DNA of 64,000 nucleotides. Origin: a bacterium (GTDB lineage Bacteria; Patescibacteriota; Microgenomatia; Levybacterales; UBA12049). Both the position numbers and the translations under genes were made by a program. The stretch lies in contig JAJYWL010000007.1 in NCBI GenBank assembly GCA_021791545.1, forward strand, positions 3,972 through 67,971, written 5' to 3'. The notes below the pieces were generated by a model. The model was not told the DNA's origin. It saw only the letters and a program-made list of their open reading frames with translations, and did not search any database. This document shows positions 14,001-64,000 of this stretch, piece by piece (within the stretch, counting starts at the first letter, position 1; every line of letters starts with the position of its first letter).

Positions 14001-17000
14001 CCTCCATTTGTAAGAAGTACACCATTGGAATAGATATTTTGACCATATATGTTTCTCCACTGGTGTGTGGCATCTCCTAAATCTATCTGCTGATTGGTTG
14101 TAGGGGCAACATTTGATCCTGTTCCTCCGGAGGGAGCTATGGCTAGATTTCCTGAGGTAGCTAAAAGTTGGACATTGTTTGTAGTTGCTCCATCATAAAT
14201 TTGGATTCCTCCTGTTCCTCCTCCATAATCGTAGTTAAATCTAACAGCAGAAGTACCTCCGTTTGAAGATATATCCAAGATTCCGGATGCTCCTGTTTTT
14301 TTAATAACCGTATCTCCACTTGAAGCTGTAAAACTTAATCCATTTCCTGTTGTAGTTATAGCTCCGGTTGCATCAACTTGAAAATTGGAAGAAGATCCAA
14401 CGGAAAATAACGCAGCTGAATTGGAATTTCCTATTCCAACATATCCGGAGCTATTAATAGTAAGTCTATCTGTATACGTTTCTGCGCCATAGGCTGTTCC
14501 ATTGGTTCCTTGCTGAATCCTAAAATCAAAATTGCTGCTTGCCAAGTAAAGTCTTGCACCTGTTCCTATTCTATTTCCTGATGTAGTTCTGTAAAGAGTG
14601 ATTGCTGGATTAGCATTGCCCTGAACAGATTCTCCGATTGTTACCAATGAATTAGCTGAAAGAAGAAATTCTGCTGAACTCGATGCAAATGGAGTTACAG
14701 GAGTACTGGCTGAGACAGAATTTTTAAATACAGCTCCGTTTCTTACATCAAGCTGAGCAACTGGATTATTTGTTCCGATACCAACATTGCCAGCAAAATA
14801 GCCTTGTCCGTCTGCTCTCACGCTAAAATTGGTGGTTGAACCAGTTACTCCTTGAAAATAGGTGTTATTAGCACCCGTTAAATTGTCTGTTATTGCCTGG
14901 AATATTCCAGGCGCACCGTAAGAATATCCTGATCCTACTTGGTGTCCTGTAAAAAATACTTGCCCAGTTGTGCCCACTGATGCAACAGCACCGGTTGTAT
15001 TTACGGTAAATTGTCCATTGGAACTGTTGGGACCTACAGTTAAAAGTTGTCCTGGATTTGTTGTTCCTATTCCAACATTTCCTGAACTGGCTTGTATCGT
15101 CATCCAAGTAGACGTGGCATTCATGTTGGTAAATCTTAGATCAGCTCCCGTTCCGGCTCCCATTGCTGCACCTGCGCTTTCGATATAATTTATTCCACCG
15201 CTGGGAACGAATTTAAGTCCACTTAAGACGCTTGCTAGTGTTCCATTATCTCGGATATATTGAGTACCAAAAACATCTAGGTTAACTTGTGGAGCTGCTG
15301 TGCCTATACCAACATTGCCTTCTACAATAAGACCGTTTGAGGGAGGGGTAGTGGTGACATATGTTGATCCAATAGCCTGACTCCCGCTTACTTCCAATAC
15401 AGCTCCAGTATTACTATATGTTGCTCCTGTATTCGATAAAACAAAGCCACGACTAGTTGCTGCATTTAAAGAGACACCTCCCTGATAATTTGCTAGTATA
15501 TATGCATTATTGGCTGTTCCACTATTACGTCCAGTTAGGTTTAATTGAGCGTTTGCGCTTCCTGCTCCTGCGTCAATAGTAAAGGCTCCGGTAGTATGGC
15601 CGGTACCTGTTACGTCAAGAGTATATGCGGGAGTGTTTGTTCCAATTCCAACATTTCCTCCGTATCCATTATTTGGCATTACGATAAGTTGTCCGCTGAA
15701 GCTGGCTTGTGTCTGATGGTTTGCAAGTCCAAGTCCTGTGAATGCAAATTCGGCGGATGCTGTCGAAGATCCTCCTAGTAATAGATCATCTCCTGACTGA
15801 ATAGGGGACAGAGCTCCCGAAAGTTCTTGCCAGTAGTTATAGTTTCCTGTAGAACAGCTTCCCCATGAGGCATTTGCTCCTCCGATAAGACATTGTCCTG
15901 CTCCTGTTGAGGCTCCCAGTGTAATTGCTCCGGAAGTTAAGGTTAATCCGGTAGAGGCTGCTATTGCGCCTGATGAATTAACTTGGAATTGAGCCGAAGA
16001 TCCTACATTAAATAAGGATGTGGCTGTTGTTCCGCCTATTGTAAAGTTACCGTTGGTGGCAACCATATATCGTGGAGGATAGCTGGCTGAGGATGAATCA
16101 AAAACCAACGTTCCCGTGGGGATAGATGTAGAACCAGTTGGATTAGGGTAAACAGTAGCTTGAATAGATTCTGTAATATTATAGGAGATAGACGTATAGC
16201 TGGTTGCTTTGTGGTAAGTATAGACTGAAATTGATCCGTCTGTTTCCTGATAGGCCAGAATCTTAGCTTTACTTCTTACATCTCCAAATAGATCATATTC
16301 ATATTTAAAGCCATTTCTATTACCCATTAAGATATTGAATTGGGATTTTTGATTGCTGCCCCAGCCATCGTCAAGAATTCCGTTAATAACTATATGATCG
16401 TATGTCGCGCTTGTGGAAATTGGTAAAGTTGCTATTTTATAATAAGTGTCGGAAGCAGGATTAACTCCTGTTTGGCTCCAACCCCAAACGGTATTGTTTA
16501 TTTGTGCGCTATTTCCTACTACTTGAAGAGCAGTTTGTGGATTATTGGTTCCTATTCCTAAATTTCCACCAGTTAAATAAGAATTTCCACTGGAGCTAAG
16601 TTGGACAGTAGCGCTTGCTCCTGAATAATCGTTTATGCCCGGGCTTATTAGAAATGCTGAAGCATTAGCAGCGGAGTTGTTAAACTGAACAATTTTACCT
16701 GTTTGATCTAATCTAAAAGATTGATGACTAGTTGTATTGACAACATTGGTAAGATTTATAGTGGTAGCTTGAACCGTACCACTTGTGTTACCGGGTGTGC
16801 CATTCCCGATATTTATATATCCATCTCCTCCCCTTGAGATTCCCGTAGTGACTGATCCTGATCCGTTATCCCAACCAAGTGATCCTCCCGAACTTAAGGT
16901 TAAAAGTTGTCCTGGGTTTGTTGTTCCAATTCCAACATTTCCACTACTATTTATTACCATTGCCGTTCCTGTTCCAAAGGAATTATTATTAACATTAAAT

Positions 17001-19834: not shown

Positions 19835-20404
19835 TGATTTAAATAATAAATTCTTGTGAAAATTCCTCTATAGCCTCGAGATTATACAGATTATACGGTT
19901 TATATCCGTGAAAAAAAGATTTATTACTCATACTATTAGAATAAAGAAAATTTTTCACCACTGTCAAGGACCTAGAGTATTATTAGATGAGATAGATTGT
20001 TAAGGATTGATATACTTGTTGTTGAAGGTGGTATTGGTGAAATAGGGTAGTGAAAAGGCTGTTTATGCCCCTGAGGCTAGTAAATTAGATAAAATAGCTA
20101 TATCTTAATGTATCAAACTAGACTTTCATCTAATTTTGGGGTAGTTGTTGATTTTGATATATTTGCCTAGAAAATGGCCGAGTTGTGTAAAATTAATCTA
20201 AGATCAGGAGGGTAGTTTAGCCTCACTCTTAGCAGATATATGGTGTGAGTGATAGGTATTTTCACATAGGGGTTTGGATTGATCTGGCGGGCTGTTTTAA
20301 ATCTATTCTAGTTTTATTCGTATGTCTCTAGCTTCGTCTATGATTTATAAAGATTTTAGTACCTTAACTGTTGTATTCCCTGAGTTTATTATACAATATA
20401 ACTA

Positions 20405-30460: not shown

Positions 30461-31304
30461 AGGTATAATCTCTTTGATAATTTTGGTTTTAGCCTTGGTT
30501 GGTCTTTATATTTATCAGAGTCTGGTTTTCTTTGACGGTAAACTTCATGTTGTAGTTTGTAATGTAGGGCAGGGAGACGCAATATTCATCAGAACTTCCG
30601 ATGCCAAAGATATCCTTATTGACGGAGGCCCGGATAATTCCGTCTTAGATTGTCTTTCAAACCATATGCCTTTCTGGGATAGGGATATAGAGCTTGTTAT
30701 GCTTTCTCATCCTCATTCCGACCACTATACGGGGCTATTAGAGGTGATGAAAAGATATAAAGTGATACATTATGTTACTGAAAAAGTTGAAAATGGTGAA
30801 AATGAGGTTTCAAAACTTAATAAAGAATTAGCAGACAAGAATTTGAATGCTAAGCACCTTTTAAGAGGAGATAAGATTGATATTTCGGGCCAAACTCAAC
30901 TATTAACTTTATGGCCGGAGAAGGGAATGGCTAAATTAGGCAAGGATACAGATATAAATGGATCGGGATTGATAGAACTTCTTACTTTCCAAAGCTTTAA
31001 GATGCTTTTGACAGACGATGTTGGCTATAAATCCGAAGAATTAGCTTCAAGTGGGATAGGTATGATAGACGTCCTAAAAGTACCTCATCACGGCTCTTCA
31101 ACGGGCATGAGCAAAGATTTTCTAAGTAATACGGATCCTAGGCTTGCCGTTATTTCCGTGGGAAAGGGAAACTCCTTTGGACATCCCGCTTTGACCTCAC
31201 TTAACCTTCTTAAAGAGGATAATATTAAAACTCTTAGAACAGACATGGATGGGGAAGTGGAGATCGTAAGTGACGGAAAGAGTTTTACCTATAAAACTAA
31301 TTGA
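30450..31304 (+). CDS. ComEC metallo-beta-lactamase domain encoded as a separate ORF (split ComEC).
   Basis: VVCNVGQGDAIFIRTSD...LSHPHSDHYTGL. Overlaps the upstream ORF by 11 nt. Confidence 0.8.
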   Translation: MKPKGIISLIILVLALVGLYIYQSLVFFDGKLHVVVCNVGQGDAIFIRTSDAKDILIDGGPDNSVLDCLSNHMPFWDRDIELVMLSHPHSDHYTGLLEVMKRYKVIHYVTEKVENGENEVSKLNKELADKNLNAKHLLRGDKIDISGQTQLLTLWPEKGMAKLGKDTDINGSGLIELLTFQSFKMLLTDDVGYKSEELASSGIGMIDVLKVPHHGSSTGMSKDFLSNTDPRLAVISVGKGNSFGHPALTSLNLLKEDNIKTLRTDMDGEVEIVSDGKSFTYKTN

Positions 31305-32991
31305 TTGTAGCGACGGGTTTAAGCGTATTCTGCCTTATAAGATCTTCTTTTTCATCTAAAGGAAGATAGAAGAAGATTTCGGTCCCTTTTCCTTCTTCCG
31401 ATTCTACCCCTACTGTCCCTCCATGAGCTTCTACTATACCTTTTGTTATATATAATCCCAGTCCTGACCCTTTTTTGGAAAGTTCCAAGGGGTTATTCTG
31501 GATCTGATAATACTTAGAGAAAAGGTCTTTTTGTTCGTCTTTTGGGATACCTATTCCGTTATCGCTTACAGACACCCTTAGCATATTTCCTTCGATTTTT
31601 GTCTTAACTGTTATTGTTCCTCCTTCGTTTGTGAACTTAAGGCTATTTGATATCAGGTTATTGAGGACTTGGGTAAGATGAACGCTATCGAATGAGAATT
31701 GAGGAATTGCTACGGGTATCTCGTTTTTAAGCGTTATCTGTTTTTTCATTGCTTGTGGAGTAAAAGCGTCCGTTACTTCTTTTATTAGCTTTGTTATATC
31801 GTTTTTATCCTTTTTTATCGTAAACTTTCCGGCTTCCATTTTCGCTGCATCCAAGACTATCCCTATCTGTTCAAGCATGCTTTTGGATTGTTTATCGACT
31901 ATTGTAAGTAGCTTTAGTTTTTCTTCTTTTCCAAGATCTTCTTCCATCATAAGTTCTGCGGAATCCTTTATTGCAGAAAGAGGTGCTCTTAATTCATGCA
32001 CCATCATGTTGGTGAAGTCTTCCTTAATCTTACTGATGTTTTTCTCGACCGTGATGTCATGAAGGAGTATAGAGGCTCCTATTGGTGCTTCGCTCTGGTC
32101 TTGTTTGAGTCTTTTTACGGGAGTTACAAATATCTGAAAGAATCTTGTTCCGATTTGTACCTCCTTGTCTTCAACAGTCGTATTTTCTTTTATTGCCTTA
32201 TCTATTTTTGAAGCCAGATCAAAGGGGGAGAAGGCTACCTGTATATGATAGAAGTTGGCATTGGGAGGAAGATTCAAAAAGTTTTTAGCTGCATCGTTTA
32301 TTATCGAAAGGTTTTTATGCATATCTACCATGAAAACACCGTCTGCAAGGCTTCCTATCATTGAGGTAAGTTTACTTTTCTCCGTCTCAAGAAGATTCTC
32401 AAGCCTTGAAAGAGCAACAGAAGCCTGTTCGGTTATCTGATACAAAAGAGTCGTCTTATCTTCCTTATATAGGTTGGGAGTAGTAGAAGAAACGTTAATA
32501 AGTCCTACGACTTTATTATTTACGATAAGAGGAATATTGAAAAAGGATGCTACCGGAGCTAATTTAGATTCGTCAATGGTAACACCATACAGTCTTTCAT
32601 CTATCTGGGTAGGGGTTTTCTCTAAAAGTGCGCTCATGGAGTTTACCATGCTTTCCTTAACCTGCCTTATGAAGGCTGAATTTACGTTTTCATCAAGGGT
32701 TGTCTTTAAGATTATCCTGTCTTCCTTTACGACCATTGAGGAGGCTGTGGAATAGGGAAGAAGGTGTTTAAGGCTTCCGGTTATTACGTCTATTATCTTT
32801 TCGATATCCAAAGAATATCCTATTCTATTTTGAATTTCTCTAAGTATTGTTATCTGGTAGATTTTCTGTTTTTGAAGTTCTTCTCTTTTTGCAAGCTCTC
32901 TTCTTATATAGAAGTTTCTAAATAACAGAAAGATTGCTAGGAAATCCAGGGCAGTTGTTAAAAATACCCAAAATGAGGTTAAGAAAGACAT
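31297..32991 (-). CDS. Sensor histidine kinase (TM, PAS/GAF-like, HisKA, HATPase_c).
   Basis: MVHELRAPLSAIKDSAELM (H-box). DNGIGIPKDEQKDLFSKYYQ, GSGLGLYITKGIVEAHGG (G-boxes). Confidence 0.85.
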   Translation of the reverse strand: MSFLTSFWVFLTTALDFLAIFLLFRNFYIRRELAKREELQKQKIYQITILREIQNRIGYSLDIEKIIDVITGSLKHLLPYSTASSMVVKEDRIILKTTLDENVNSAFIRQVKESMVNSMSALLEKTPTQIDERLYGVTIDESKLAPVASFFNIPLIVNNKVVGLINVSSTTPNLYKEDKTTLLYQITEQASVALSRLENLLETEKSKLTSMIGSLADGVFMVDMHKNLSIINDAAKNFLNLPPNANFYHIQVAFSPFDLASKIDKAIKENTTVEDKEVQIGTRFFQIFVTPVKRLKQDQSEAPIGASILLHDITVEKNISKIKEDFTNMMVHELRAPLSAIKDSAELMMEEDLGKEEKLKLLTIVDKQSKSMLEQIGIVLDAAKMEAGKFTIKKDKNDITKLIKEVTDAFTPQAMKKQITLKNEIPVAIPQFSFDSVHLTQVLNNLISNSLKFTNEGGTITVKTKIEGNMLRVSVSDNGIGIPKDEQKDLFSKYYQIQNNPLELSKKGSGLGLYITKGIVEAHGGTVGVESEEGKGTEIFFYLPLDEKEDLIRQNTLKPVATIN

Positions 32992-40623: not shown

Positions 40624-41787
40624 TTATTCTTCAGGATCTTCGGAGTGAACTCTAGTATAGAGAATAGCTAGTCTTTTTATTGGTTCGCTTTTCATTGCTT
40701 CAGCGGTTTCTGTAATTCTGTTTGGGGATGGGATTGCCTTTAATACTTCGGTTACAGCTTCAATTTGTCCAATTGATGCTAAATACTCCAAGTGGGAGAC
40801 TAGTTCTTTATCAAGAAACATTGGAAGATATTCCTGAATAATGGGATCTTGAAGCCTTGCTTTGTAGTCTTTTTTTGGTTTTACATTTCTATTTTTGTCA
40901 TAATCATAATGTTCGTCAAATCTTAATGATTCTTCGTCTGTAAAATCAGGGCCAATTACTTCGTCAAAATACGGCCTCACAAGTTTAGCTATGTCTTGTT
41001 TTGAAACCCCCAAGGCTTGTCTATCTGTATTTATTCTACCCACAAAATCGGCATATCTATCTAATGCCTCATCTGATAGATAGCGTAAATCAAAATCAAA
41101 TTTTCTACCTTCACCATTGACTCTTTCTAATACTTTTAATCCGTCAGCAGTGCCTGTTGGATCCAAGTCTTTATAATTTTTCGTTAGAACATTATCAACA
41201 ACTCTAAAAGAGTGTCCTCCGTTGATTCCTACTCGCATGTCAGCAAGTTCTTCCCAAAATCTTCCATTGTTGAGTCTTCTTCTTAGTTGAGGGCTAATCC
41301 TGTCTGCAAACATTGATCCCGGTTTTTCAACAATTTGGCTATGTGCAATGCTAAATGGTCTTTGACTGCCTGGAGCAAAAACAGTACCTTCGGGGGCGCT
41401 AAATACCATTTCCATATATATTCCGAACAGATCCTGTAACTGTTCCTCTGTGAAATTCTCTTTTGCCCAAGTCCTTGATTTTTCTCTTTCTTGATCCCAC
41501 TCAGACTTTGGAAGGCCATTTGCAAAAGTAGGAATTCCTTCATAGCTTACTTGTCCGTCAATTCTATCCATAATTCCCCAGAATCTTCCGTCTTTGATGT
41601 CTCTAAAAAGCCATGCGACACTTAAATCATCTTTTGCTTCTGGGTGTTGCTCATAATAGGAATCCATGAACTGGTTGGCTTGAGGGAAAGCGGAATCTTT
41701 CTGAGGAAGACTTCTTAGGTGTTCCCATTGAAGGGAGTCATGTGTTGGTGGCCATACTCTTTGTGTTGTTCTTTCCGGTGTTGTCAT
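40624..41787 (-). CDS. Hypothetical protein (387 aa). W/R/D-rich, atypical for the window.
   Basis: ORF only. No recognisable motif. Confidence 0.4.
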   Translation of the reverse strand: MTTPERTTQRVWPPTHDSLQWEHLRSLPQKDSAFPQANQFMDSYYEQHPEAKDDLSVAWLFRDIKDGRFWGIMDRIDGQVSYEGIPTFANGLPKSEWDQEREKSRTWAKENFTEEQLQDLFGIYMEMVFSAPEGTVFAPGSQRPFSIAHSQIVEKPGSMFADRISPQLRRRLNNGRFWEELADMRVGINGGHSFRVVDNVLTKNYKDLDPTGTADGLKVLERVNGEGRKFDFDLRYLSDEALDRYADFVGRINTDRQALGVSKQDIAKLVRPYFDEVIGPDFTDEESLRFDEHYDYDKNRNVKPKKDYKARLQDPIIQEYLPMFLDKELVSHLEYLASIGQIEAVTEVLKAIPSPNRITETAEAMKSEPIKRLAILYTRVHSEDPEE

Positions 41788-55244: not shown

Positions 55245-56755
<1,511 letters not shown>

Positions 56756-56897
56756 TTAATACAAATTAATTGAGCCTGTCAACGCTGGACACCTATTGAC
56801 ATCTACTTGAGATTAATTTTACTATTAATATAGGTATAAAGTTGGACAAAAAAAAAGACGACTGTCCAAGTTATTTTAACACTAAAAAACGTCCTAA

Positions 56898-59060
56898 ATG
56901 CAAGAAGAACTTATTTCTATCCAGAAGGCAGCAGATTACTTGGGAGTTTCTACGAAAACCCTTCGAAGATGGGAACAACGCGGCATCTTGGTACCCCAAA
57001 GAACCTCTGGAAACCAAAGAAGATATACTTTTACGGAACTAGAGAATTTTAAAAACGGTCAAGAAGAAAGAAAACATGAAGAAAGAACAGAAGAAGCTTC
57101 CGATGTAATTAATTCTCTTCAGCCTCTGGATACCATTTCTTATATAAAACTTGAAATGAGTAAATTTCCTTTGAGCAAAAAACTTCTTCTTACCTTAGCA
57201 CCTGTAATAATATTATTTTTGGCTTCCGGTATAGTCGTGAAAGACTTAGTATTTAAAGGAATAGGGACCGGAGGGGAAAAGAGCGTAGTAGCACAGAAGC
57301 AGGGTAATGGAAATGCGGTTTTAGGAGCAGAGACGGAATCTAATAACTATATCTTTAAAGTAAACGTTCCTAGCACTTTTGGTGAATCAGCAAGCTTCTT
57401 AAAAGGAATAACGGTTAACGGACAGACTATCTTTGCCGGTGGAATAGATACCAACAATAGGGATGTAAATGCGGGTTCGGGTAAATTGACGGCATCTAAT
57501 GTTATCTATAGTCTTCAAGCTGGTTCCGGACTTTCAGTTACTAACGGACAGACTCCTACAATAGCTAACACAGGAGTGCTTTCCCTTGGTGGTTCTACAG
57601 GAGCGATAGATCTCGGCGCCGGAACAGGAATATCTATAGACGGATTAAAGATTACAAATACGGACACAGGATCTTCTCAATATATATTTAAAAATATTGT
57701 TTCGGGAGGACAGAAAATCACAGCAGATTCGAACTCAGATACTTTAAACTTCACAGCCGGAACAGGTGTTACTCTTTCAACAGATGCATTGACAAAAACT
57801 ATAACTATAGCCTCAAATCAAGGACAACAAACAGGAGTAACTTCTTTGCAGGGTCAGACAGGAGCTTTGACATTAGCTGCTGGAACAGGCCTTTCTTTGG
57901 CAGGTCTTACTTTCTCCAACTCCGGAGTGACCTCTGTAAATACTCTTACAGGAGATCTTAATATTGCAGCAGGATCAAACGTCAGCGTTACAAAAGATGC
58001 TAATACAAATACTGTCACAATATCTTCAACTATATCAAATAATACTATTTCAAATGTCTCTGGTTGGACTCAAAGCGGCAATTATGTAACATTAGCAAAT
58101 TCGGGAAACTACGTAGGCATAGGAACAGCAACTCCGGCAAGTGCTTTACAGGTAGGGGGAGATATTCTTCCTACCCAAAACGGTGTTTCTAATTTAGGTT
58201 CGTCAAATCTTAGTTGGAACAATATATACGCTAATCAAATAGTTGGAACAGGTGCACAGCTTAATCTAACAATTCCTGCAACAAGTTCGGCGACCGGTCT
58301 TTCGGTCTCTATGAGCGGCACGGGGAGCGGACAGCTTGCATCCTTCAGCTTTAATGGAACCCAGGTTTTAGGCGTAGGTACAAACGACGTATATATAGGA
58401 GGAAAGGTAAGTATGATAACAGATGATACAAACCTTTCGAATGCAAAAGATGTTTTTGTTTATGACACTTCAAAAGATTCTGATGCAGGACAATGGGTAA
58501 ATGGTGATACATCTCAATCTTCTTCCTGGTATAACGAACAGTTGGATCATACAGGTCTTGCTTGCCAGATAGGAACGGATAAAAGGTGCGGACAAAGGCC
58601 CTTCCCTCAAAAAGTAACAATATATGTAACCTCGAATTCAGTTTATATCTATGACAATAAAGACAATACGATGTGGATGAAGTTCTCGGAGGGTCAGAAT
58701 TTCGCAATAAACGGAACAAGCGTTAATCTTACTTCAGTTTACGCATTAAATGGAATAATTTTCCTCGGAACAGATACGAACGGATTAATAGAAATAAACT
58801 TCTTAACGGATAAGATTTTTGAATTTAACTATAACCAGGGAAATGGTGGAAGAAGTCAGTTCCTGGGAACAATTTCCGAAAGAAATTCTGCTAAATTCTA
58901 CGGCTCTGTCGAATCTTGGGGAAGGATTGCTTCAGATAAGGTTAATGGAGTATTTGCAAGAGTAATTAACGGAAAAGTGTATGTTGCTGTTTCGACTTTG
59001 GGAGGAGCATCGGTAATAAATCTTTCAGACCAAAAAGTAGTTAAGTACGTCGATAATTAA
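56898..59060 (+). CDS. Membrane-tethered MerR-type HTH protein with a large ectodomain carrying the NVGIGT..P fibre repeat and a C-terminal beta-propeller-like region.
   Basis: N-terminus ISIQKAADYLGVSTKTLRRWEQRGILVPQRTSGNQRRYTFTELENF (MerR/excisionase-type HTH). TM helix LLLTLAPVIILFLASGIVV. Ectodomain GNYVGIGTATPASALQVGG. C-terminus ...IIFLGTDTNGLIEINF. Confidence 0.6.
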   Translation: MQEELISIQKAADYLGVSTKTLRRWEQRGILVPQRTSGNQRRYTFTELENFKNGQEERKHEERTEEASDVINSLQPLDTISYIKLEMSKFPLSKKLLLTLAPVIILFLASGIVVKDLVFKGIGTGGEKSVVAQKQGNGNAVLGAETESNNYIFKVNVPSTFGESASFLKGITVNGQTIFAGGIDTNNRDVNAGSGKLTASNVIYSLQAGSGLSVTNGQTPTIANTGVLSLGGSTGAIDLGAGTGISIDGLKITNTDTGSSQYIFKNIVSGGQKITADSNSDTLNFTAGTGVTLSTDALTKTITIASNQGQQTGVTSLQGQTGALTLAAGTGLSLAGLTFSNSGVTSVNTLTGDLNIAAGSNVSVTKDANTNTVTISSTISNNTISNVSGWTQSGNYVTLANSGNYVGIGTATPASALQVGGDILPTQNGVSNLGSSNLSWNNIYANQIVGTGAQLNLTIPATSSATGLSVSMSGTGSGQLASFSFNGTQVLGVGTNDVYIGGKVSMITDDTNLSNAKDVFVYDTSKDSDAGQWVNGDTSQSSSWYNEQLDHTGLACQIGTDKRCGQRPFPQKVTIYVTSNSVYIYDNKDNTMWMKFSEGQNFAINGTSVNLTSVYALNGIIFLGTDTNGLIEINFLTDKIFEFNYNQGNGGRSQFLGTISERNSAKFYGSVESWGRIASDKVNGVFARVINGKVYVAVSTLGGASVINLSDQKVVKYVDN

Positions 59061-59061
59061 T

Positions 59062-62000
59062 ATGACAAAAAAAGATTTTAAAAAATTTAATTTTAAAGAC
59101 CAAAAATTCTTATTCTTTGGGTTGATTGTTTTATTGGCATTTGTTACTTTTCTTGTTTCGCATAAAAATAATCAGAAAAAAGAAATGTCGGCTCTCGAAA
59201 GCTTCGTTTCAAAGCAAAAATTACCTCAAAAAGATGGGTCAGTAAAGTATTCAATCCAGAAAGAAAAGGGTTATACCTTAAAAACAGCGGAAAAGGGAAA
59301 TGTAGATTCTCCTGTAACTTTTGAGGCAAAGGGTGGATCTGTCTCTTTTACAAGTATTCCCAATCAGACCTTGGGAGGATTAAATACCTCGGTGGTAGAA
59401 GCAAAAGACGGTAAAACGGTTTATAACAATATATATAATGGTATAAACCTTATTTATACCCCTTCTTCAAACGGAATTTTGGAAGAATATGAAGTAAGAG
59501 TCAAAAGGCCTCTCGAAAATATAGTTCAAAAGATAAATGTTTCGGGTCTAACTTATAAACAGCAAAAAGACGGCTCAATACTTTTCTATAACAAAAATAA
59601 TCAGTTTGCATTTGCAATACCAAAACCGGTCATGTACGAAGAGTACAACACGAAAAACAGGAGCTATGGTCTTCATTATGAAATCTTCACTTATGGAGGA
59701 AATACATATCTTGCAAAAGTAATTGATCAGGAAGGGCAACAGTGGCTTTCCAAGACAAACTATCCGGTAATGATAGACGCTACAATTCTTCTTACCCTTT
59801 TTAGTTATCAATCTTACCCGACAACTTCAGTAAACTGGCAGATTTCAATAGATACGGTAGGGTCAGGAGATCTCAAAATTCAACCAACAGATGGCACAAC
59901 TTGGAATGATTTGAGCTTAACTTCAATTACTTGTGGAACCGAAAAAGTTTCATATTCAAATTCAAATGGTGTCATAACAATCCCTAATTACTCTTGTGAT
60001 CAGAATACATTGATTACTACCAAGTTAAAAGATCCGTCAAAGCAATCTTCTCTTTCCTTTAATTGGAGCGGATACGAAACGGTTGTTCAAAACCAGGTAT
60101 ATACGGGAAAACCTGAAATAATTTCTTCGTCTCTAAATCCCGCAGTAGTGAAAGTAGGAGACACGATTACCGTAAAAACAGAAGTAGCTGATTTAAATGG
60201 TGTAAAAAGTGTAAAAGCTGACATGGGTGGTATACAAACAATAGACCTTAGTATGACTTCGGGAACGGCACAGGATGGAGTATGGCAAGGGCAATGGAAA
60301 GTAGAGGGAACAAAGATGCTTCCTTACGAGACAAAAATAACTGCATCAAATGCTTCGGAAAGTACGACATCTTCAATAGGGTTTTTTGATCCTTACACTT
60401 GTCTAGGTGGAGGAGATCATGCAGGTGCAGCTTGGGATCCTGCTACAGATTGTCCTTCCGGGTTTGCGGGAAATCATACAAATATAGGAACAATGTCGAT
60501 AGGAACAGGTGAGACGGCAACAGTTCAGGCTTTTGATCAGGTGTCAAATTATGGAATAGCAACAATATCTGCTTCAACAGTTACTATAACAGGAACTTTA
60601 ACAGCATATGGAAAAGGTTGGCGTGGTGGTACTGCGGGTGGGGGTTCAGGTTTGGGACCAGGATTTGGAGCTGGTTCTACGGGTCATGGTGGAGGAGCAG
60701 GTTACGGAGGAGTAGGAGGAACAGGTAATGGAGCAGGGGGACCTTCTTATGGTTCGTTATCGGCACCAGGCGATTTGGGAAGTGGTGGTGGAGGAGGAGG
60801 ATCTGCAGCCGGAGGAGCAGGGGGAGGATCAATTAGGGTTGTTGCTACTGGAACTCTTACCGTAAATGGAACTATTTCTGCAAACGGAGTAAACGGTGGT
60901 AATGCAAATGGTAATAACGGTGGTGGAGGTTCGGGAGGAAGTATATATCTTACTGCCGGGACTTTAGCTGGAAGCGGTACTGTTACAGCTATTGGAGGAA
61001 ACGGTGTAAACGCTTGGGGAACAAGCGGTAACGCAGGAGGAGGAAGAATAGCAATGTATTACACTAGTGCTAATAATTTTACCGGAACTACACCTGTTAA
61101 TGTAGGAACAGGTGGTCTGGGAGGAGCAAATGGAACTGCTTTTATTGAAAATCCCAACACTAATGATCTTTTAATAGTTTCTAATAATGGAATTTGGGTT
61201 GGAAGCGATTTATCTTCTTGGAATTTTTCAAATCTTACTATTAATGCAAATGTCGCTTTTCAGCCTTCTAATGCTCAACTTTTAACAATTAATGTTTCCG
61301 GAACAACTACTATTGGTTCAGGAGTGACTGTTTCTGCTATGAGTTCTTATACTACCAATTCGAATGGAGTTGGAGTCTATTTTAATTTAAGCGGTAACGT
61401 TACAATACCGGCAACTTCTACTATAACTGCATCTGGTTTGGGTTATGCGGCCGGAGTAGTCGGAGGAACTTCTGGAGCTGGTCCCGGAGCAGGTGGTGGT
61501 TCTGCGGGTGCTGCGGCTGGAGCAGGTTATGGATCAGCGGGAGGAAATGGAAGTGGAGCAGGAGCTACAGGTGGTTCTTTTTATGGTTCGTTGACGGCAC
61601 CTGTTGATTTGGGAAGTGGTGGAGGTGGAGGAGGATCTGCAAACGGAGGTGCAGGTGGAGGAGCAATAAGGATAACTACTCCGGGAACTCTTACTATAAA
61701 TGGAACGATTACATCAAATGGAAATAACGGTGGAGATGCAAATGGAAATAACGGTGGTGGAGGAGCCGGTGGAAGTATTTATCTTACGGCGGGTACTTTA
61801 GCCGGAAACGGTTCTGTTACAGCAAATGGAGGAAATGCGGCAACTAACTGGGGAACTGGCGGTAACGGAGCAGGGGGAAGAATAGCTATATATTATACGA
61901 CTACTAATAGTTATACAGGTTCGACTGCGGTTAATGTGGGAACTGGGGGAGCGGGAGGAGCAAATGGAACTGCTTTTATAAAAGGTTCGAGCGCTGGAGA

Positions 62001-64000
62001 CTTGCTTATTCCTGCAAATAACGGAATTTGGTACGGGAGTGATCTTTCGAATTGGAATTTTCACAATATTACCATTAATGCAAACATTACGTTTAAACCT
62101 AGTGGTGCCAATCTTCTTACAATTAATTCAACCGGGTCGGCAACAATAGCTTCAGGAATTACTATTACAACGGCAGGTTCATATACAAATAATACAAACG
62201 GAGTTGGTGTTTTCTTCAATCTTACGGGAAATGTAACATTGCCTGCTACAAGTACGATAAATGCAGCTTCTCAAGGTTACGCAGCTGGTGCTGCCGGTGG
62301 ATCTTCGGGTTCCGGTCCGGGGGCGGGTATTGGTTATCCAGGCGGTCACGGTGGAGGAGCAGGCTATGGAGGGGCAGGTGGAAATGGTACAGGTGCCGGA
62401 GGAGCCGCTTATGGTTCATTAACTCTTCCAGGAGATTTGGGAAGTGGTGGAGGCGGAGGAGGATCTATAGCCGGAGGAGCCGGAGGAGGAGCAGTAAAGA
62501 TAGTAACTACGGGAACTCTTACTATAAACGGAACGATTACGGCAAACGGAGGAAATGGTGGAAATGCAAATGGTAATAACGGAGGAGGAGGATCTGGAGG
62601 AAGTATATGGTTAACAGCTGGTACTTTGGCAGGAAATGGAACTCTTACGGCAAACGGAGGAAATGGAGTAAATGCCTGGGGGGCAAGCGGTAATGGAGGA
62701 GGAGGAAGAATAGCTATGTACTACATAACAGCTAATAATTTTTCAGGAACAACGACTGCTAATGTAGGAACAGGCGGAAACGGTGGTGCAAATGGTACGA
62801 TTAACAGATCTTCAGATAACATTCCTGCAATAACAAATCTTTCCCAGTATCAAACAGATTGTATTAATTCTTTGGCTGTTGGAGGGACTTTGCAGGGTGA
62901 TAATTCGGGATCGACAGGTTGTTTTAAAGCTAGCCTAAGTACATCAAATATCTCGGACAACTTATACCTTCAGATAGAAGCGCAGCAAATCGGAGGTACA
63001 TTTAGCAATATTTATTCGACTCAAAGCGCGGGATTTGCCTTCTCGGGGTCGCCTCTTACGGCCAATGTCTCGCAAGTAGGTTTCACCCTGGGAGTAGCTT
63101 ATCATTGGCAAGCAAGAGTAGTAGATCAATATGGTTATCCTTCGGCATGGACATCTTTTGGAGGAAATTCCGAGTCGGTTGCGGATTTTGTATCAAATGT
63201 TCCTGCCCCTGCAAATATAACAGCTACATATAATTCCGACAGTCAAATTACAATTACCTGGACTAATACGGCATTAAATGTTGTTCATTTTGAGATACAA
63301 AGAAGTACGAATGGTGGTGCATATACGACAATAGGAACCACAACGGATGGTAATACTTTATCTTTTACCGATAATCCTACTAATAACCCAGGAGCTCCTC
63401 CTTCAGCAAATCATAAATATTCTTATCAGGTAAGATCTAATTTCTCCGGTTATTCTTCTGATTTTGGTACGCCTTCATCTTTGGTATATACAACTCCCGC
63501 AGCTCCTTCAGCAGTTTCTATATCTCAAACAGCAGTAGGTTCTATAACCGTTTCTTGGACAAATAATGCGAATTATCAGACAGCATTTCAGGTTCAAAGA
63601 TCGATAGGAGGAGGATCTTATCAGACAATAACATCCACAGTATCTCCTTCAGCAACTTCATTTGTTGATTCAAATGCTCAACAGGGAACAAGCTATGATT
63701 ACAAGGTTGCAGCATTAAGAACAACCCCAAATGCGCTTACCTCAGCATTTGTACAAGCAGCTTCGCCGGTAACTATATCTAAGGGCTTTGGAAGGGGTAT
63801 TTATCTTACTCAGAACGGTTCACTTGTTATTCAAAATGATGTAAAAAACAGTGTAGATATATTTACAAATATTCAGAATGATACCCAGGATAAAGTAGGA
63901 CAACAGTTTGCATATGACCAGACAAATCCTTCTTCCGGGCCTAACCTTCCCACGGGAAGTACTCTAAACGGATTAACTGTTAAAGAAGGTGTATCTACAG
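59062..64000 (+). CDS. Giant surface protein. Partial (>1,640 aa): the C-terminus runs beyond the window. It has an N-terminal signal anchor, three ~280-aa Gly/Asn-rich beta-helix-like tandem repeats, and FN3 domains.
   Basis: Manual translation from the ATG at 59062 (MTKKDFKKFNFKDQKFLFFGLIVLLAFVTFLVS...) stays open to 64000. It is absent from the ORF track because there is no in-window stop. Repeat unit: ...GGGGGSAAGGAGGGSIRVVATGTLTVNGTISANG.NGGNANGNNGGGGSGGSIYLTAGTLAG.GTVTA.GGNG.NAWG.SGN.GGGRIAMYYT.... FN3-like: ITATYNSDSQITITWTN...FEIQRSTNGGAYTTIG. Confidence 0.7.
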   Translation, partial: MTKKDFKKFNFKDQKFLFFGLIVLLAFVTFLVSHKNNQKKEMSALESFVSKQKLPQKDGSVKYSIQKEKGYTLKTAEKGNVDSPVTFEAKGGSVSFTSIPNQTLGGLNTSVVEAKDGKTVYNNIYNGINLIYTPSSNGILEEYEVRVKRPLENIVQKINVSGLTYKQQKDGSILFYNKNNQFAFAIPKPVMYEEYNTKNRSYGLHYEIFTYGGNTYLAKVIDQEGQQWLSKTNYPVMIDATILLTLFSYQSYPTTSVNWQISIDTVGSGDLKIQPTDGTTWNDLSLTSITCGTEKVSYSNSNGVITIPNYSCDQNTLITTKLKDPSKQSSLSFNWSGYETVVQNQVYTGKPEIISSSLNPAVVKVGDTITVKTEVADLNGVKSVKADMGGIQTIDLSMTSGTAQDGVWQGQWKVEGTKMLPYETKITASNASESTTSSIGFFDPYTCLGGGDHAGAAWDPATDCPSGFAGNHTNIGTMSIGTGETATVQAFDQVSNYGIATISASTVTITGTLTAYGKGWRGGTAGGGSGLGPGFGAGSTGHGGGAGYGGVGGTGNGAGGPSYGSLSAPGDLGSGGGGGGSAAGGAGGGSIRVVATGTLTVNGTISANGVNGGNANGNNGGGGSGGSIYLTAGTLAGSGTVTAIGGNGVNAWGTSGNAGGGRIAMYYTSANNFTGTTPVNVGTGGLGGANGTAFIENPNTNDLLIVSNNGIWVGSDLSSWNFSNLTINANVAFQPSNAQLLTINVSGTTTIGSGVTVSAMSSYTTNSNGVGVYFNLSGNVTIPATSTITASGLGYAAGVVGGTSGAGPGAGGGSAGAAAGAGYGSAGGNGSGAGATGGSFYGSLTAPVDLGSGGGGGGSANGGAGGGAIRITTPGTLTINGTITSNGNNGGDANGNNGGGGAGGSIYLTAGTLAGNGSVTANGGNAATNWGTGGNGAGGRIAIYYTTTNSYTGSTAVNVGTGGAGGANGTAFIKGSSAGDLLIPANNGIWYGSDLSNWNFHNITINANITFKPSGANLLTINSTGSATIASGITITTAGSYTNNTNGVGVFFNLTGNVTLPATSTINAASQGYAAGAAGGSSGSGPGAGIGYPGGHGGGAGYGGAGGNGTGAGGAAYGSLTLPGDLGSGGGGGGSIAGGAGGGAVKIVTTGTLTINGTITANGGNGGNANGNNGGGGSGGSIWLTAGTLAGNGTLTANGGNGVNAWGASGNGGGGRIAMYYITANNFSGTTTANVGTGGNGGANGTINRSSDNIPAITNLSQYQTDCINSLAVGGTLQGDNSGSTGCFKASLSTSNISDNLYLQIEAQQIGGTFSNIYSTQSAGFAFSGSPLTANVSQVGFTLGVAYHWQARVVDQYGYPSAWTSFGGNSESVADFVSNVPAPANITATYNSDSQITITWTNTALNVVHFEIQRSTNGGAYTTIGTTTDGNTLSFTDNPTNNPGAPPSANHKYSYQVRSNFSGYSSDFGTPSSLVYTTPAAPSAVSISQTAVGSITVSWTNNANYQTAFQVQRSIGGGSYQTITSTVSPSATSFVDSNAQQGTSYDYKVAALRTTPNALTSAFVQAASPVTISKGFGRGIYLTQNGSLVIQNDVKNSVDIFTNIQNDTQDKVGQQFAYDQTNPSSGPNLPTGSTLNGLTVKEGVST
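60590..62800 (+). repeat. Three tandem ~830-840 bp in-frame repeats inside the 59062 gene.
   Basis: Highly similar DNA blocks begin near 60670, 61500 and 62330. Example: ggaagtggtgg.gg.ggaggatctgca...ggagga.caat.agg.t..t.ctac.ggaactcttac. Confidence 0.7.

What the first reader, a model, noticed from the sequence alone, without database searches (positions are those of the whole stretch)
56898..59060. Second membrane-tethered DNA-binding fibre protein: MerR-type HTH + TM + ectodomain sharing the NVGIGT..P repeat
The 720-aa protein starts with a clear MerR/excisionase-type HTH (YLGVSTKTLRRWEQRGILVPQRTSGNQRRYT). It then has one TM helix and an ectodomain with the same GN(Y)VGIGT.TP...L.V repeat found in the 3,934-aa protein. 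It is immediately followed (2-nt gap) by a third giant adhesin-like gene. Two unrelated DNA-binding folds (integrase SAM-like; MerR HTH), both of mobile-element or regulatory origin, are fused to the same kind of fibre ectodomain in one window. This suggests a family of transmembrane regulators or DNA tethers with fibre ectodomains, possibly sensing host or partner contact in an episymbiotic CPR organism and regulating the adjacent giant adhesin gene.
Basis: partly seen in the sequence, partly recalled or inferred. Interest (0 to 1): 0.7.

Follow-up and report, generated by a model that had tools for sequence, protein, structure and literature searches.

The report
Membrane-anchored fibre protein binding its own promoter
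A surface fibre protein of tiny Microgenomates (CPR) bacteria carries a transposase-type DNA-binding domain on its cytoplasmic end, and matching DNA boxes sit on its own promoter in dozens of species, so the protein probably controls or tethers its own gene from the membrane.

Summary
ORF 56898-59060 encodes a 720-aa protein with a MerR-type winged HTH (Pfam above its cutoff, confident AF2 fold), one TM helix (N-terminus inside), and an ectodomain ending in a beta-propeller-like module. There are two corrections. The NVGIGT motif occurs once, not as a repeat, and the gap to the downstream giant gene is 1 nt.

It belongs to a family found in at least 161 Microgenomates species. Members are usually giant (over 1,000-2,400 aa) and nearly always lie divergent from the ATP synthase operon.

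The new result concerns the gene's own 5' region. It carries helically phased AAA(C/G)TT(G/A)GACA boxes. These are 39-fold enriched, present in 72 of 80 species, spaced 10/21/32 bp, and start at about the transcription start. HTH-less paralogues lack them (0 of 4).

The same boxes mark the ends of IS607-type transposons, whose TnpA has a homologous HTH (E = 9e-14). TnpA is known to bind phased subterminal repeats.

Best reading: a transposase DNA-binding domain and its sites were exapted into a membrane-tethered self-regulator or locus tether. DNA binding itself is inferred, not shown.

The parts
56796..56825 (+). Sigma-70-type promoter of the gene: -35 TTGACA (56796-56801), 18-nt spacer, -10 TACTAT (56820-56825).
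   Evidence: Consensus scan, 10 of 12 matches. The TTGACAT and TACTAT elements are conserved in orthologous loci.
56838..56848 (+). Box 1, AAAGTTGGACA, a forward operator-like box about +5 to +15 from the inferred transcription start.
   Evidence: It matches the family consensus AAA(C/G)TT(G/A)GACA.
56863..56872 (-). Box 2, TGTCCAAGTT, the inverted partner of box 1 with 14 nt between the arms.
   Evidence: Inverted repeat I5, 90% complementary. This is the only pair of boxes within 45 nt of each other in the 64-kb window. Forward-to-reverse spacing of 17-20 nt is typical of the family.
56781..56791 (+). Degenerate third box, AACGCTGGACA, between the two divergent promoters and 56-66 nt upstream of the ATP synthase c-like gene start.
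   Evidence: Direct repeat D1, 82% identical to box 1. In other species second box clusters lie 44-170 nt upstream of the c-like gene. Its role is inferred only.
56898..57062 (+). Cytoplasmic MerR/HTH_17-type winged helix-turn-helix, aa 1-55.
   Evidence: Pfam above cutoff. AF2 pLDDT 83-96. Foldseek to RacA, Xis, BldC and CarH DNA-binding domains. 36% identity to an IS607-type TnpA DNA-binding domain, E = 9e-14. Invariant KTLRRWE and R-T-G-RRY in family members found by homology search.
57063..57176 (+). Charged helical linker, aa 56-93. Its length ranges from 19 to 151 aa across the family.
   Evidence: AF2 helices at aa 45-73 and 79-88. Linker lengths. Sequence is not conserved.
57177..57251 (+). 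Single transmembrane helix, aa 94-118, oriented N-in and C-out.
   Evidence: Kyte-Doolittle peak 2.73. AF2 helix at aa 92-119. Positive-inside statistics.
57315..58247 (+). Conserved membrane-proximal ectodomain, aa ~140-450. It has Gly/Thr/Ser-rich beta repeats and one NVGIGT..P motif at aa 401-421 (nt 58098-58160).
   Evidence: aa 125-307 is conserved in about 35 HTH-bearing hits and about 14 HTH-less hits. aa 310-500 is conserved in 38 members. Motif profile test. More distant sequence relatives carry tail-fibre-type Pfam domains PF13884 and PF12219.
58410..59057 (+). C-terminal all-beta module with beta-propeller-type blades, aa ~505-720.
   Evidence: 1,316 cluster representatives at E <= 0.001, mostly as an internal module of 2,000-5,600-aa proteins. 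AF2 pLDDT 84.9, pTM 0.84. Foldseek matches propellers such as the BT4663 sensor domain at E = 4e-5 with low TM-scores of 0.24-0.33. Among family members it is present only in the closest orthologues.
59062..64000 (+). Downstream giant gene, partial in the window, probably co-transcribed. It has an N-terminal TM, Gly-rich repeats and an fn3 domain.
   Evidence: 1-nt gap. No terminator or promoter at the junction. fn3 hit. 3,556 aa on a near-identical contig. A giant gene also follows in L001, L008 and L009.
55952..56725 (-). Divergent first gene of the F-type ATP synthase operon: a c-subunit-like protein with a signal peptide and an extracytoplasmic domain. It shares the 172-bp intergenic region.
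   Evidence: Pfam ATP-synt_C, weak. A homologue lies divergent from the family gene in about 68 of 80 species.

Best explanation
The gene encodes a type-II membrane protein, with the N-terminus in the cytoplasm and a fibre-like ectodomain outside. Its cytoplasmic tip is a small MerR-like winged HTH of the kind used by IS607-family serine transposases, without the effector or dimerisation parts of classical MerR regulators.

The HTH most likely binds the AAA(C/G)TT(G/A)GACA boxes that lie, one helical turn apart or as an inverted pair, from about +1 to +40 of the gene's own promoter. Several HTHs would be brought together by oligomerisation of the fibre and would occupy neighbouring boxes on one face of the DNA.

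Because the boxes overlap the transcription start, the most likely outcome is negative feedback on the operon, which comprises this gene and the giant gene 1 nt downstream. The locus would also be held at the membrane.

The module looks like an exapted IS607 left end: the boxes plus the first ~55 codons of tnpA, with the recombinase domain replaced by a TM helix and a fibre.

Shown: the domain architecture, the topology statistics, the family, the synteny, box enrichment, phasing and position, co-occurrence of boxes with the HTH, and homology to the IS607 TnpA DNA-binding domain that carries the same boxes. Inferred: that this HTH binds these boxes, the sign of regulation, and oligomerisation.
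For: - HTH fold.
- TM and N-in topology.
- Family: 97 homologues, about 35 with HTH-TM-ectodomain; 161 species genomes, 80 loci analysed.
- Box enrichment: 163 boxes in 11.85 kb upstream (13.8 per kb) against 251 in 718 kb elsewhere in the same loci (0.35 per kb). 72 of 80 loci have at least one box.
- Box clusters: 73 of 81 lie in the intergenic region upstream of the gene.
- Extended 12-bp consensus. Direct spacing is 10 bp (22 cases), 21-22 bp (5) and 32 bp (7). The first box starts 33-34 or 44-47 nt after the start of the -35 element.
- 19 loci have only direct repeats, and inverted pairs show no RNA-type covariation (GC 18, GT 10, AC 8, AT 1).
- No Rfam hit, and the UTR hairpin has z = -0.76.
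- HTH-less paralogues with the same ectodomain module have boxes in 0 of 4 cases, including two next to the ATP synthase operon. Fisher p = 2.6e-4.
- HTH-bearing genes away from the ATP synthase operon keep the boxes.
- In the window the box pair is unique and this is the only MerR-type HTH.
- Independent system: IS607-type elements L125 and L098 carry the same boxes at both ends. Their TnpA HTH (PKTIRRW, NKTIRRW) is homologous to this one (TKTLRRW) at E = 9e-14.
- Experimental precedent: IS1535 TnpA binds four helically phased 9-bp direct repeats, about 10 bp per unit (PMC6188088). BldC binds direct repeats head-to-tail (PMC5859096). Membrane-anchored regulators capture target loci at the membrane (PMC9977878).
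Against: - No binding experiment exists.
- Tandem TTGGACA arrays are not exclusive to this family. Of 45 distinct metagenomic contexts with the array, only 5 are family genes and at least 6 are IS607/TnpB elements. The rest are unknown and include human-gut contigs where the array precedes a CBM96/DUF6531 gene with no such HTH nearby. Another binder therefore cannot be excluded.
- The 80 species loci were retrieved with the peptide pattern V[SV][TA]KTLRRW. Divergent HTH variants were not sampled, and HTH-box covariation could not be tested.
- The HTH-less control has only n = 4.
- The transcription start is inferred from consensus hexamers only.
- 6-8 of 80 loci lack a canonical box.
- Repression rather than activation rests on box position alone.
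- Oligomerisation of the ectodomain is not shown. The monomer AF2 model of it is poor.
Confidence: 0.5

Rival explanations
1. Signal-responsive transmembrane transcription regulator. The ectodomain senses host or partner contact or a ligand, and transmits this across the membrane to change HTH occupancy. This would switch the operon with the giant adhesin-like gene, in the manner of ToxR, CadC or VtrA.
For: The HTH-TM-ectodomain architecture is that of transmembrane transcription regulators, and the 2023 survey lists MerR, MerR_1 and HTH_17 DNA-binding domains among them. The C-terminal module resembles extracellular sensor propellers of Bacteroides hybrid two-component systems. The gene forms an operon with the giant gene.
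Against: The distal ectodomain, including the propeller module, is not conserved across the family. Only the membrane-proximal ~450 aa are. Typical members are structural giants of more than 2,000 aa rather than compact sensors. A single TM with a 19-151-aa variable linker offers no obvious signalling path. Fold matches have low TM-scores of 0.24-0.33.
Confidence: 0.2
2. Pure DNA tether or transertion anchor. The HTH binds the boxes mainly to hold the locus, or the nucleoid, at the membrane where the giant fibres are exported. It has little effect on transcription rate, like RacA anchoring or VtrA-type locus capture.
For: The closest structural match of the HTH is the RacA DNA-binding domain. 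Locus capture by membrane-anchored regulators has been demonstrated (PMC9977878). The target operon encodes very long membrane or secreted proteins. The linker is long and flexible.
Against: The boxes overlap the transcription start up to +40, where a bound protein should interfere with initiation or escape. A tether would not need that precise position. There is only one small cluster per locus, unlike the dispersed RacA sites.
Confidence: 0.15
3. The boxes are bound by some other factor, or are inert relics of an IS607 end, and the fused HTH binds elsewhere or nothing. The HTH could be a protein-interaction module like the HTH of RodZ, or a topology-determining cytoplasmic cap.
For: The same tandem arrays occur in many contexts without this HTH. 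RodZ shows that an HTH-TM protein need not bind DNA (general knowledge, not tested here).
Against: Boxes and HTH co-occur (72 of 80 against 0 of 4). Both are conserved in sequence, phase and position across Levy-, Ames-, Shapiro-, Woese- and Daviesbacteria. Relics would decay. Recognition-helix and wing residues are invariant while the linker drifts. A homologous HTH goes with the same boxes in IS607-type elements.
Confidence: 0.1
4. The inverted repeat acts as an RNA hairpin in the 5' UTR, for stability or translational control, and not as a DNA operator.
For: The window's two arms can pair at 9 of 10 positions. The predicted hairpin is -8.7 kcal/mol.
Against: z = -0.76 against shuffles. There is no Rfam match. 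19 loci have only direct repeats. The sequence is conserved rather than the pairing, and A-C mismatches are common (8 of 9 forward boxes with A). The 10/21/32-bp phasing is a property of duplex DNA.
Confidence: 0.03

Closest known systems
IS607-family serine transposase TnpA (N-terminal MerR-like DNA-binding domain) and its subterminal repeats
   Same: The HTH subtype is the same: 36% identity over 58 aa, E = 9e-14, with recognition helix KT[IL]RRW. The DNA box AAA(C/G)TTGGACA, its ~10-bp phasing, and its orientation directly upstream of the HTH-encoding ORF are also the same. TnpA is shown experimentally to bind helically phased 9-bp direct repeats cooperatively (PMC6188088).
   Different: There is no resolvase catalytic domain and no TnpB. 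NCBIfam transpos_IS607 scores 26.7 bits against a cutoff of 110. The gene sits in a fixed syntenic position across at least 68 species and is not mobile. The HTH is fused to a TM helix and an extracellular fibre.
Transmembrane transcription regulators (ToxR, CadC, VtrA/VtrB; survey of Demey et al. 2023)
   Same: A cytoplasmic N-terminal HTH, a single TM and an extracytoplasmic C-terminal part. DNA would be bound from the membrane. The survey's supplement lists MerR (386), MerR_1 (350) and HTH_17 (151) DNA-binding domains among such proteins.
   Different: The characterised examples use OmpR-type winged helices and small sensor domains, and they activate other genes. Here the ectodomain is a structural fibre, often over 2,000 aa. 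The sites are at the protein's own promoter, downstream of the -10 element, and the DNA-binding module comes from a transposase.
BldC (Streptomyces), an effector-less MerR-like regulator
   Same: It is a minimal MerR-like winged HTH without a coiled coil or effector domain. Structural match has rmsd 1.5 A and 36% identity. It binds variable numbers of direct repeats head-to-tail on one face of the DNA (PMC5859096).
   Different: BldC is a soluble 68-aa protein with a different repeat, AATT-N4-C. NCBIfam HTH_BldC scores 25 bits against a cutoff of 77.
RacA (Bacillus subtilis chromosome anchor)
   Same: Its MerR-like winged HTH is the top structural match (5i44, target-normalised TM 0.63). It attaches DNA to the cell envelope.
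   Different: RacA is peripheral, acting through DivIVA, and is not an integral membrane protein. It binds dispersed GC-rich sites near the origin and has no ectodomain (partly from general knowledge; mentioned in PMC5859096).
Classical MerR-family regulators (MerR, CueR, SoxR)
   Same: The N-terminal HTH and wing match the Pfam MerR models.
   Different: There is no dimerisation coiled coil or effector-binding domain. Equivalog scores are far below their cutoffs (CueR 18.7 of 147, SoxR 19.6 of 117, MerR 12 of 151). The promoter spacer is 18 nt and the sites lie downstream of the -10 element, not inside a 19-20-bp spacer.

Membership tests
MerR/HTH_17 winged-HTH domain superfamily | Sequence match to the Pfam MerR, MerR_1 or HTH_17 models above the gathering score | tested here: met
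   46.4 bits (cutoff 28.2), 44.6 (21.6) and 34.8 (27), over aa 6-54.
MerR/HTH_17 winged-HTH domain superfamily | beta-alpha-alpha-beta-beta winged-helix fold | tested here: met
   AF2 pLDDT 83-96 for aa 1-60. Foldseek to RacA, Xis, BldC and CarH with rmsd 1.5-2.5 A.
Classical MerR-family transcription regulators | C-terminal coiled-coil dimerisation helix plus effector-binding domain | tested here: not met
   The HTH is followed by a variable linker and a TM helix. All equivalog models score far below their cutoffs.
Classical MerR-family transcription regulators | Palindromic operator inside an over-long (19-20 bp) -35/-10 spacer | tested here: not met
   The spacer is 18 nt, and the boxes start at or after the inferred transcription start.
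Transmembrane transcription regulators (one-component, membrane-bound) | A DNA-binding domain and at least one TM helix in one polypeptide, with the DNA-binding domain in the cytoplasm | tested here: met
Transmembrane transcription regulators (one-component, membrane-bound) | Sequence-specific DNA binding and control of transcription while membrane-bound | not testable with these tools
   Only comparative evidence is available: conserved phased boxes at the gene's own promoter that co-occur with the HTH.
IS607-family transposase TnpA | N-terminal MerR-like HTH | tested here: met
   36% identity, E = 9e-14 to the TnpA of L125.
IS607-family transposase TnpA | Serine-recombinase (Resolvase) catalytic domain after the HTH | tested here: not met
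   No Resolvase hit. NCBIfam IS607 scores 26.7 bits against a cutoff of 110. By contrast, the L125 TnpA does have PF00239.
IS607-family transposase TnpA | Element structure: repeats at both ends, tnpB partner, variable genomic location | tested here: not met
   There is no tnpB, and synteny is fixed next to the ATP synthase operon in about 68 of 80 species. Boxes occur only at the 5' side.
BldC family | NCBIfam HTH_BldC subfamily score | tested here: not met
   25 bits against a cutoff of 77. The resemblance is structural and mechanistic only.
Excisionase (TIGR01764) | Domain model score | tested here: not met
   22.8 bits against a cutoff of 28.8.
Phage-tail-fibre-like / CPR giant surface fibre proteins | Shared repeat motifs (GNVGIGT..P...L; LG....W..iY) and fibre-type domains | tested here: inconclusive
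   There is one significant NVGIGT motif and one LGSSNLSWNNIY match. More distant relatives carry Peptidase_S74 and End_tail_spike domains. The ectodomain itself has no Pfam or PDB sequence hit, and its monomer model is poor.

The most novel reading that the evidence does not exclude
Giant surface-fibre genes of Microgenomates have each captured a recombinase DNA-binding domain together with its cognate sites: an IS607 TnpA HTH with TTGGACA boxes here, and integrase SAM-like domains with GTATAATCT repeats in the 3,934-aa neighbour. In this reading the nascent N-terminus binds its own gene copy in cis while it is still being transcribed. Insertion of the following TM helix then pins the locus to the membrane. 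The result is a self-limiting transertion hub for exporting multi-thousand-residue fibres. The shared intergenic region also couples this hub to the ATP synthase operon.
Probability: 0.15. Interest if true: 0.9.

Novelty: new variant of a known kind. Interest (0 to 1): 0.7.

Why it matters
How membrane-anchored regulators reach DNA, and whether genes are brought to the membrane for coupled transcription, translation and insertion, are still open questions with few tractable examples. This family offers a simple, self-contained case. One polypeptide is at once the structural product, the DNA-binding factor and the membrane anchor. Its binding site is predictable from comparison of about 80 species.

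It would also be a clear bacterial example of a transposase DNA-binding domain and its transposon-end sites being domesticated together as a regulatory module.

For CPR biology, it identifies a core, vertically inherited surface-fibre locus tied to the ATP synthase operon. NCBI currently names these proteins only as "MerR family transcriptional regulator, partial".

Tried and rejected
- Regulon idea. The 9-mer AGTTGGACA occurs 6 times in the window against 0.44 expected. The other five copies lie in coding regions with no shared context, so this was rejected as a regulon signal.
- RNA hairpin or known RNA family in the 5' UTR. Rejected.
- Exclusivity of the array. The metagenome scan showed the array is not unique to the family. 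This lowered confidence but revealed the IS607 link.
- Apparent natural fission in L200 (an 83-aa HTH gene followed by a TM-fibre gene). This is a scaffold gap of Ns inside one gene.
- The conserved 69-71-aa stand-alone HTH_17 proteins in L001 and L090 as fission products or as the box binder. They have a different recognition helix, and L090 has no boxes.
- The window's 720-aa gene plus downstream giant as a split of one ancestral giant. No homology was found between the downstream gene or the C-terminal module and the long family members.
- Covariation between box variants (TTACCCA) and HTH variants. The word is only 2-fold enriched and the recognition helix is invariant by the way the loci were retrieved.
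- The full 35-sequence alignment A1 was too divergent for the locus scan.
- The full-length AF2 model is unusable for the ectodomain. Foldseek hits to T4 gp34 have probability 0.1 and mean nothing.
- Literature searches found no description of this family.
Full report
OBSERVATION. The ORF at 56898-59060 (+) exists as described and encodes 720 aa. Residues 6-54 match Pfam MerR (46.4 bits, cutoff 28.2), MerR_1 and HTH_17, all above their gathering scores. AlphaFold2 models aa 1-60 with pLDDT 83-96 as a beta-alpha-alpha-beta-beta winged helix, followed by helices and a TM helix at aa 92-119. Foldseek aligns this domain to DNA-bound MerR-like domains: RacA, mycobacteriophage Pukovnik Xis, BldC and CarH, with rmsd 1.5-2.5 A and target-normalised TM 0.63-0.75. 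There is one hydrophobic segment, at aa 94-118.

The NVGIGT..P motif shared with the 3,934-aa protein is real. A profile of that protein's ten repeats scores 19.6 bits (E = 3.3e-5) at aa 401-421, against a maximum of 7.0 bits in 1,000 composition-preserving shuffles. It occurs only once here, and overall BLASTP similarity is weak (E = 0.015).

The downstream gene starts at 59062, a 1-nt gap rather than 2. It has its own N-terminal TM, Gly-rich repeats and an fn3 domain, and is 3,556 aa on a near-identical contig.

THE PROTEIN BEYOND THE HTH. The C-terminal ~215 aa form an independent module. It is found in 1,316 cluster representatives, mostly inside 2,000-5,600-aa proteins, sometimes in several copies. 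Several proteins end exactly at this module, so the stop at 59060 is a natural boundary. The module folds confidently (pLDDT 84.9, pTM 0.84) into beta-propeller-type blades. The best matches are extracellular sensor propellers of Bacteroides hybrid two-component systems, but TM-scores are only 0.24-0.33. The rest of the ectodomain has no Pfam or PDB sequence match and is poorly modelled as a monomer.

A FAMILY. A homology search returned 97 proteins. About 35 have the same order of parts: a MerR HTH, a single TM, then a conserved membrane-proximal module matching aa ~125-307. NCBI names them "MerR family DNA-binding transcriptional regulator, partial" from Patescibacteria, Levybacteria or Microgenomates. 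Others carry the same ectodomain module directly behind an N-terminal TM with no HTH, and a few have tandem HTHs.

Among these homologues the recognition helix and wing are invariant (KTLRRWE; R-T-G-RRY), while the linker to the TM varies in sequence and length. The linker ranges from 19 to 151 aa. Positive-inside statistics (K+R 212 on the N-side, 121 on the C-side; 48 proteins against 13) place the HTH in the cytoplasm.

A scan of one genome per GTDB species found relatives in 161 species. The 80 loci fetched are from Levy-, Ames-, Shapiro-, Woese- and Daviesbacteria. Most ORFs run off the locus or the contig. Complete ones are 741 to 2,166 aa, and many exceed 2,000 aa while still incomplete. 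Only aa 1-~450 are conserved. The window's C-terminal module and its downstream giant have no counterparts in the long members.

SYNTENY. In about 68 of 80 species the gene lies divergent from the F-type ATP synthase operon. Its neighbour there is an unusual c-subunit-like first gene. A giant gene often follows it.

THE KEY RESULT: CONSERVED BOXES AT THE GENE'S OWN PROMOTER. The window has a TTGACA-18-TACTAT promoter. This is followed by the inverted pair AAGTTGGACA-N14-TGTCCAAGTT at 56839-56872, the only pair of boxes within 45 nt of each other in the 64 kb.

Reading the 130 nt upstream of the gene in all species showed the same word again and again. The statistics are as follows.
- TT(G/A)GACA or its complement occurs 163 times in 11.85 kb upstream (13.8 per kb) against 251 times in 718 kb of the same loci (0.35 per kb). 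That is 39-fold enrichment, with at least one box in 72 of 80 loci.
- Of 81 clusters of two or more boxes, 56 are within 170 nt of the start codon and 17 lie further up the same intergenic region. About nine of those 17 lie 44-170 nt before the ATP synthase c-like gene. Only 8 are anywhere else.
- The conserved word extends to AAA(C/G)TT(G/A)GACA(A/T).
- Spacing between forward boxes is 10 bp (22 cases), 21-22 bp (5) and 32 bp (7), which is one, two and three helical turns.
- Forward-to-reverse spacing is 17-20 bp.
- The first box starts 33-34 or 44-47 nt after the start of the -35 element, which is at or just after the inferred transcription start.

Several points argue against an RNA hairpin and for a protein on one face of duplex DNA. 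Nineteen loci have only direct repeats. Inverted pairs show no pairing covariation. There is no Rfam match. The hairpin is energetically ordinary.

DO THE BOXES GO WITH THE HTH? HTH-less paralogues with the same ectodomain module have no box in the 200-290 nt upstream in 4 of 4 cases. Two of them sit next to the ATP synthase operon. Fisher p = 2.6e-4 against 72 of 80. HTH-bearing genes that are not next to the ATP synthase operon keep the boxes. An apparent HTH/fibre gene split in L200 turned out to be a scaffold gap, and that gene does have boxes.

RECIPROCAL TEST AND THE IS607 LINK. I searched metagenomes for the two-box array alone, and it returned 80 loci in 45 sequence contexts. Only 5 contexts are family genes, so the array is not exclusive to this family. 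This limits the certainty that the fused HTH is the binder.

At least six contexts, however, are IS607/TnpB-type elements. In L125 the array lies 24 nt before the ATG of a TnpA with HTH_17/MerR plus Resolvase domains, followed by TnpB. Inverted boxes lie at the other end. L098, L140, L107, L135 and the L096 group show the array at the 3' end of tnpB. The L125 TnpA HTH is 36% identical to ours over 58 aa (E = 9e-14) and has the same recognition helix.

[quoted passage not shown] BldC, another minimal MerR-like protein, binds direct repeats head-to-tail (PMC5859096). So one HTH subtype and one box co-occur in two independent systems, and in the relative the HTH-repeat interaction is experimentally established.

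The layout in the CPR gene is boxes in forward orientation, then the ATG, then the HTH. This mirrors an IS607 left end in which the recombinase domain has been replaced by a TM helix and a fibre.

MECHANISM. The best-supported reading is a membrane-anchored protein whose cytoplasmic HTH occupies the boxes on its own promoter. Because the boxes overlap the start site, negative feedback on the operon is most likely, and the locus would be held at the membrane. That operon comprises this gene plus the giant gene 1 nt downstream, with no terminator or promoter at the junction. Locus capture by membrane-anchored regulators has precedent (PMC9977878). Clustering of several HTHs by an oligomeric fibre would explain the two to three phased boxes typical of each promoter, but oligomerisation is not shown.

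The second box clusters near the ATP synthase promoter, and a degenerate box at 56781-56791 in the window, suggest that the conserved synteny reflects a shared control region. This is inference only.

COMPARISON WITH KNOWN SYSTEMS. The protein meets the definition of a transmembrane transcription regulator by architecture. The 2023 survey already lists MerR, MerR_1 and HTH_17 domains among such proteins (PMC10269533, supplement). It is not a classical MerR regulator. It has no coiled coil or effector domain, equivalog scores are far below cutoffs, and the operator is not in an over-long spacer. It is not an IS607 transposase, a BldC-family member or an excisionase by the curated thresholds.

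I found no paper describing this family, its boxes or its link to the ATP synthase operon. I rate it a new variant of a known kind.

CAVEATS.
- DNA binding is inferred, not measured.
- The 80 species loci were retrieved through the peptide V[SV][TA]KTLRRW, so invariance of that stretch among them is by construction.
- The transcription start is inferred from consensus hexamers.
- The HTH-less control has only four members.
- Many array contexts remain unexplained.

Noticed in passing
window 19873-19903 (- strand), upstream of gene 8030-19834; L053 about 1560-1600: The integrase-SAM-domain giant gene has its own conserved element after a TTGACA promoter: GTATAATCT-GTATAATCT-CGAGGCTA. It is almost identical in L053 (GTATAATCTGTATAATTTCGAGGCTA), where the SAM-TM gene (44% identical N-terminus, 1,375 aa) lies directly upstream of that species' MerR-TM gene. 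This suggests the same logic of a DNA-binding N-terminus with repeats at its own promoter, but it rests on only two loci.
   Followed up: partly
window 55952-56725 (-), and homologues in about 68 of 80 loci: The first gene of the ATP synthase operon encodes a 257-aa protein with a signal peptide, a ~170-aa extracytoplasmic domain and a C-terminal c-subunit hairpin (ALGRNP loop; Pfam ATP-synt_C, E = 0.0018). No a-subunit gene lies between it and the MerR-TM gene. In L201 an HTH-less fibre gene sits co-directionally right in front of this gene and the alpha, gamma, beta and epsilon genes.
   Followed up: no
window, 5' of genes at 31297-32991(-), 40624-41787(-), 55952-56725(-), 56898; 44 of 80 species loci: No Shine-Dalgarno-like GGAGG is visible before any of 41 genes in the window. 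CTGCC(C/T) lies 0-10 nt before the ATG of several operon-leading genes. It also lies within 14 nt of the family gene's start in 44 of 80 species (background 0.53 per kb). It may be a non-SD initiation signal.
   Followed up: partly
L095, L104, L108, L114, L115, L137, L156, L165 (human-gut metagenome contigs); L102, L131: Arrays of 5-6 or more TTGGACA-type boxes at 10-bp spacing precede the promoter of a CBM96 + DUF6531 protein gene in gut bacteria of ~50% GC, with no MerR-type HTH nearby. L102 and L131 carry 10 or more tandem copies. The binder and function are unknown.
   Followed up: partly
L001 21032-21241 (-); L090 4531-4746 (-): A 69-71-aa stand-alone HTH_17/MerR protein (LLTVREVAEVLRVSPLTIKRWGKRGKLPAIRINSRGDRRYKKEAV) is almost identical between two different Microgenomates lineages. 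It lies near the ATP synthase and giant-gene region. Its recognition helix differs from that of the fused HTH.
   Followed up: partly
L001 20627-21028; L009 20535-20912: A 23S_rRNA_IVP/bAvd-like four-helix-bundle gene follows the giant gene cluster in two loci. bAvd-type proteins accompany diversity-generating retroelements, but no reverse transcriptase was seen in the fetched stretch.
   Followed up: no
L010-L089: Most contigs end inside or shortly after these genes, so public annotations call them 'partial'. Many record titles read 'uncultured Gammaproteobacteria' although the loci are clearly Microgenomates-like, which suggests mislabelled MAG submissions.
   Followed up: no
L008 7848-8558 and 13334-14209; L011 4792-5727: IS1595 transposase genes flank the family gene in L008, one of them between it and the downstream giant. 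A 311-aa Fic-like gene with a C-terminal HTH sits between the ATP synthase operon and the family gene in several Levybacteria.
   Followed up: no
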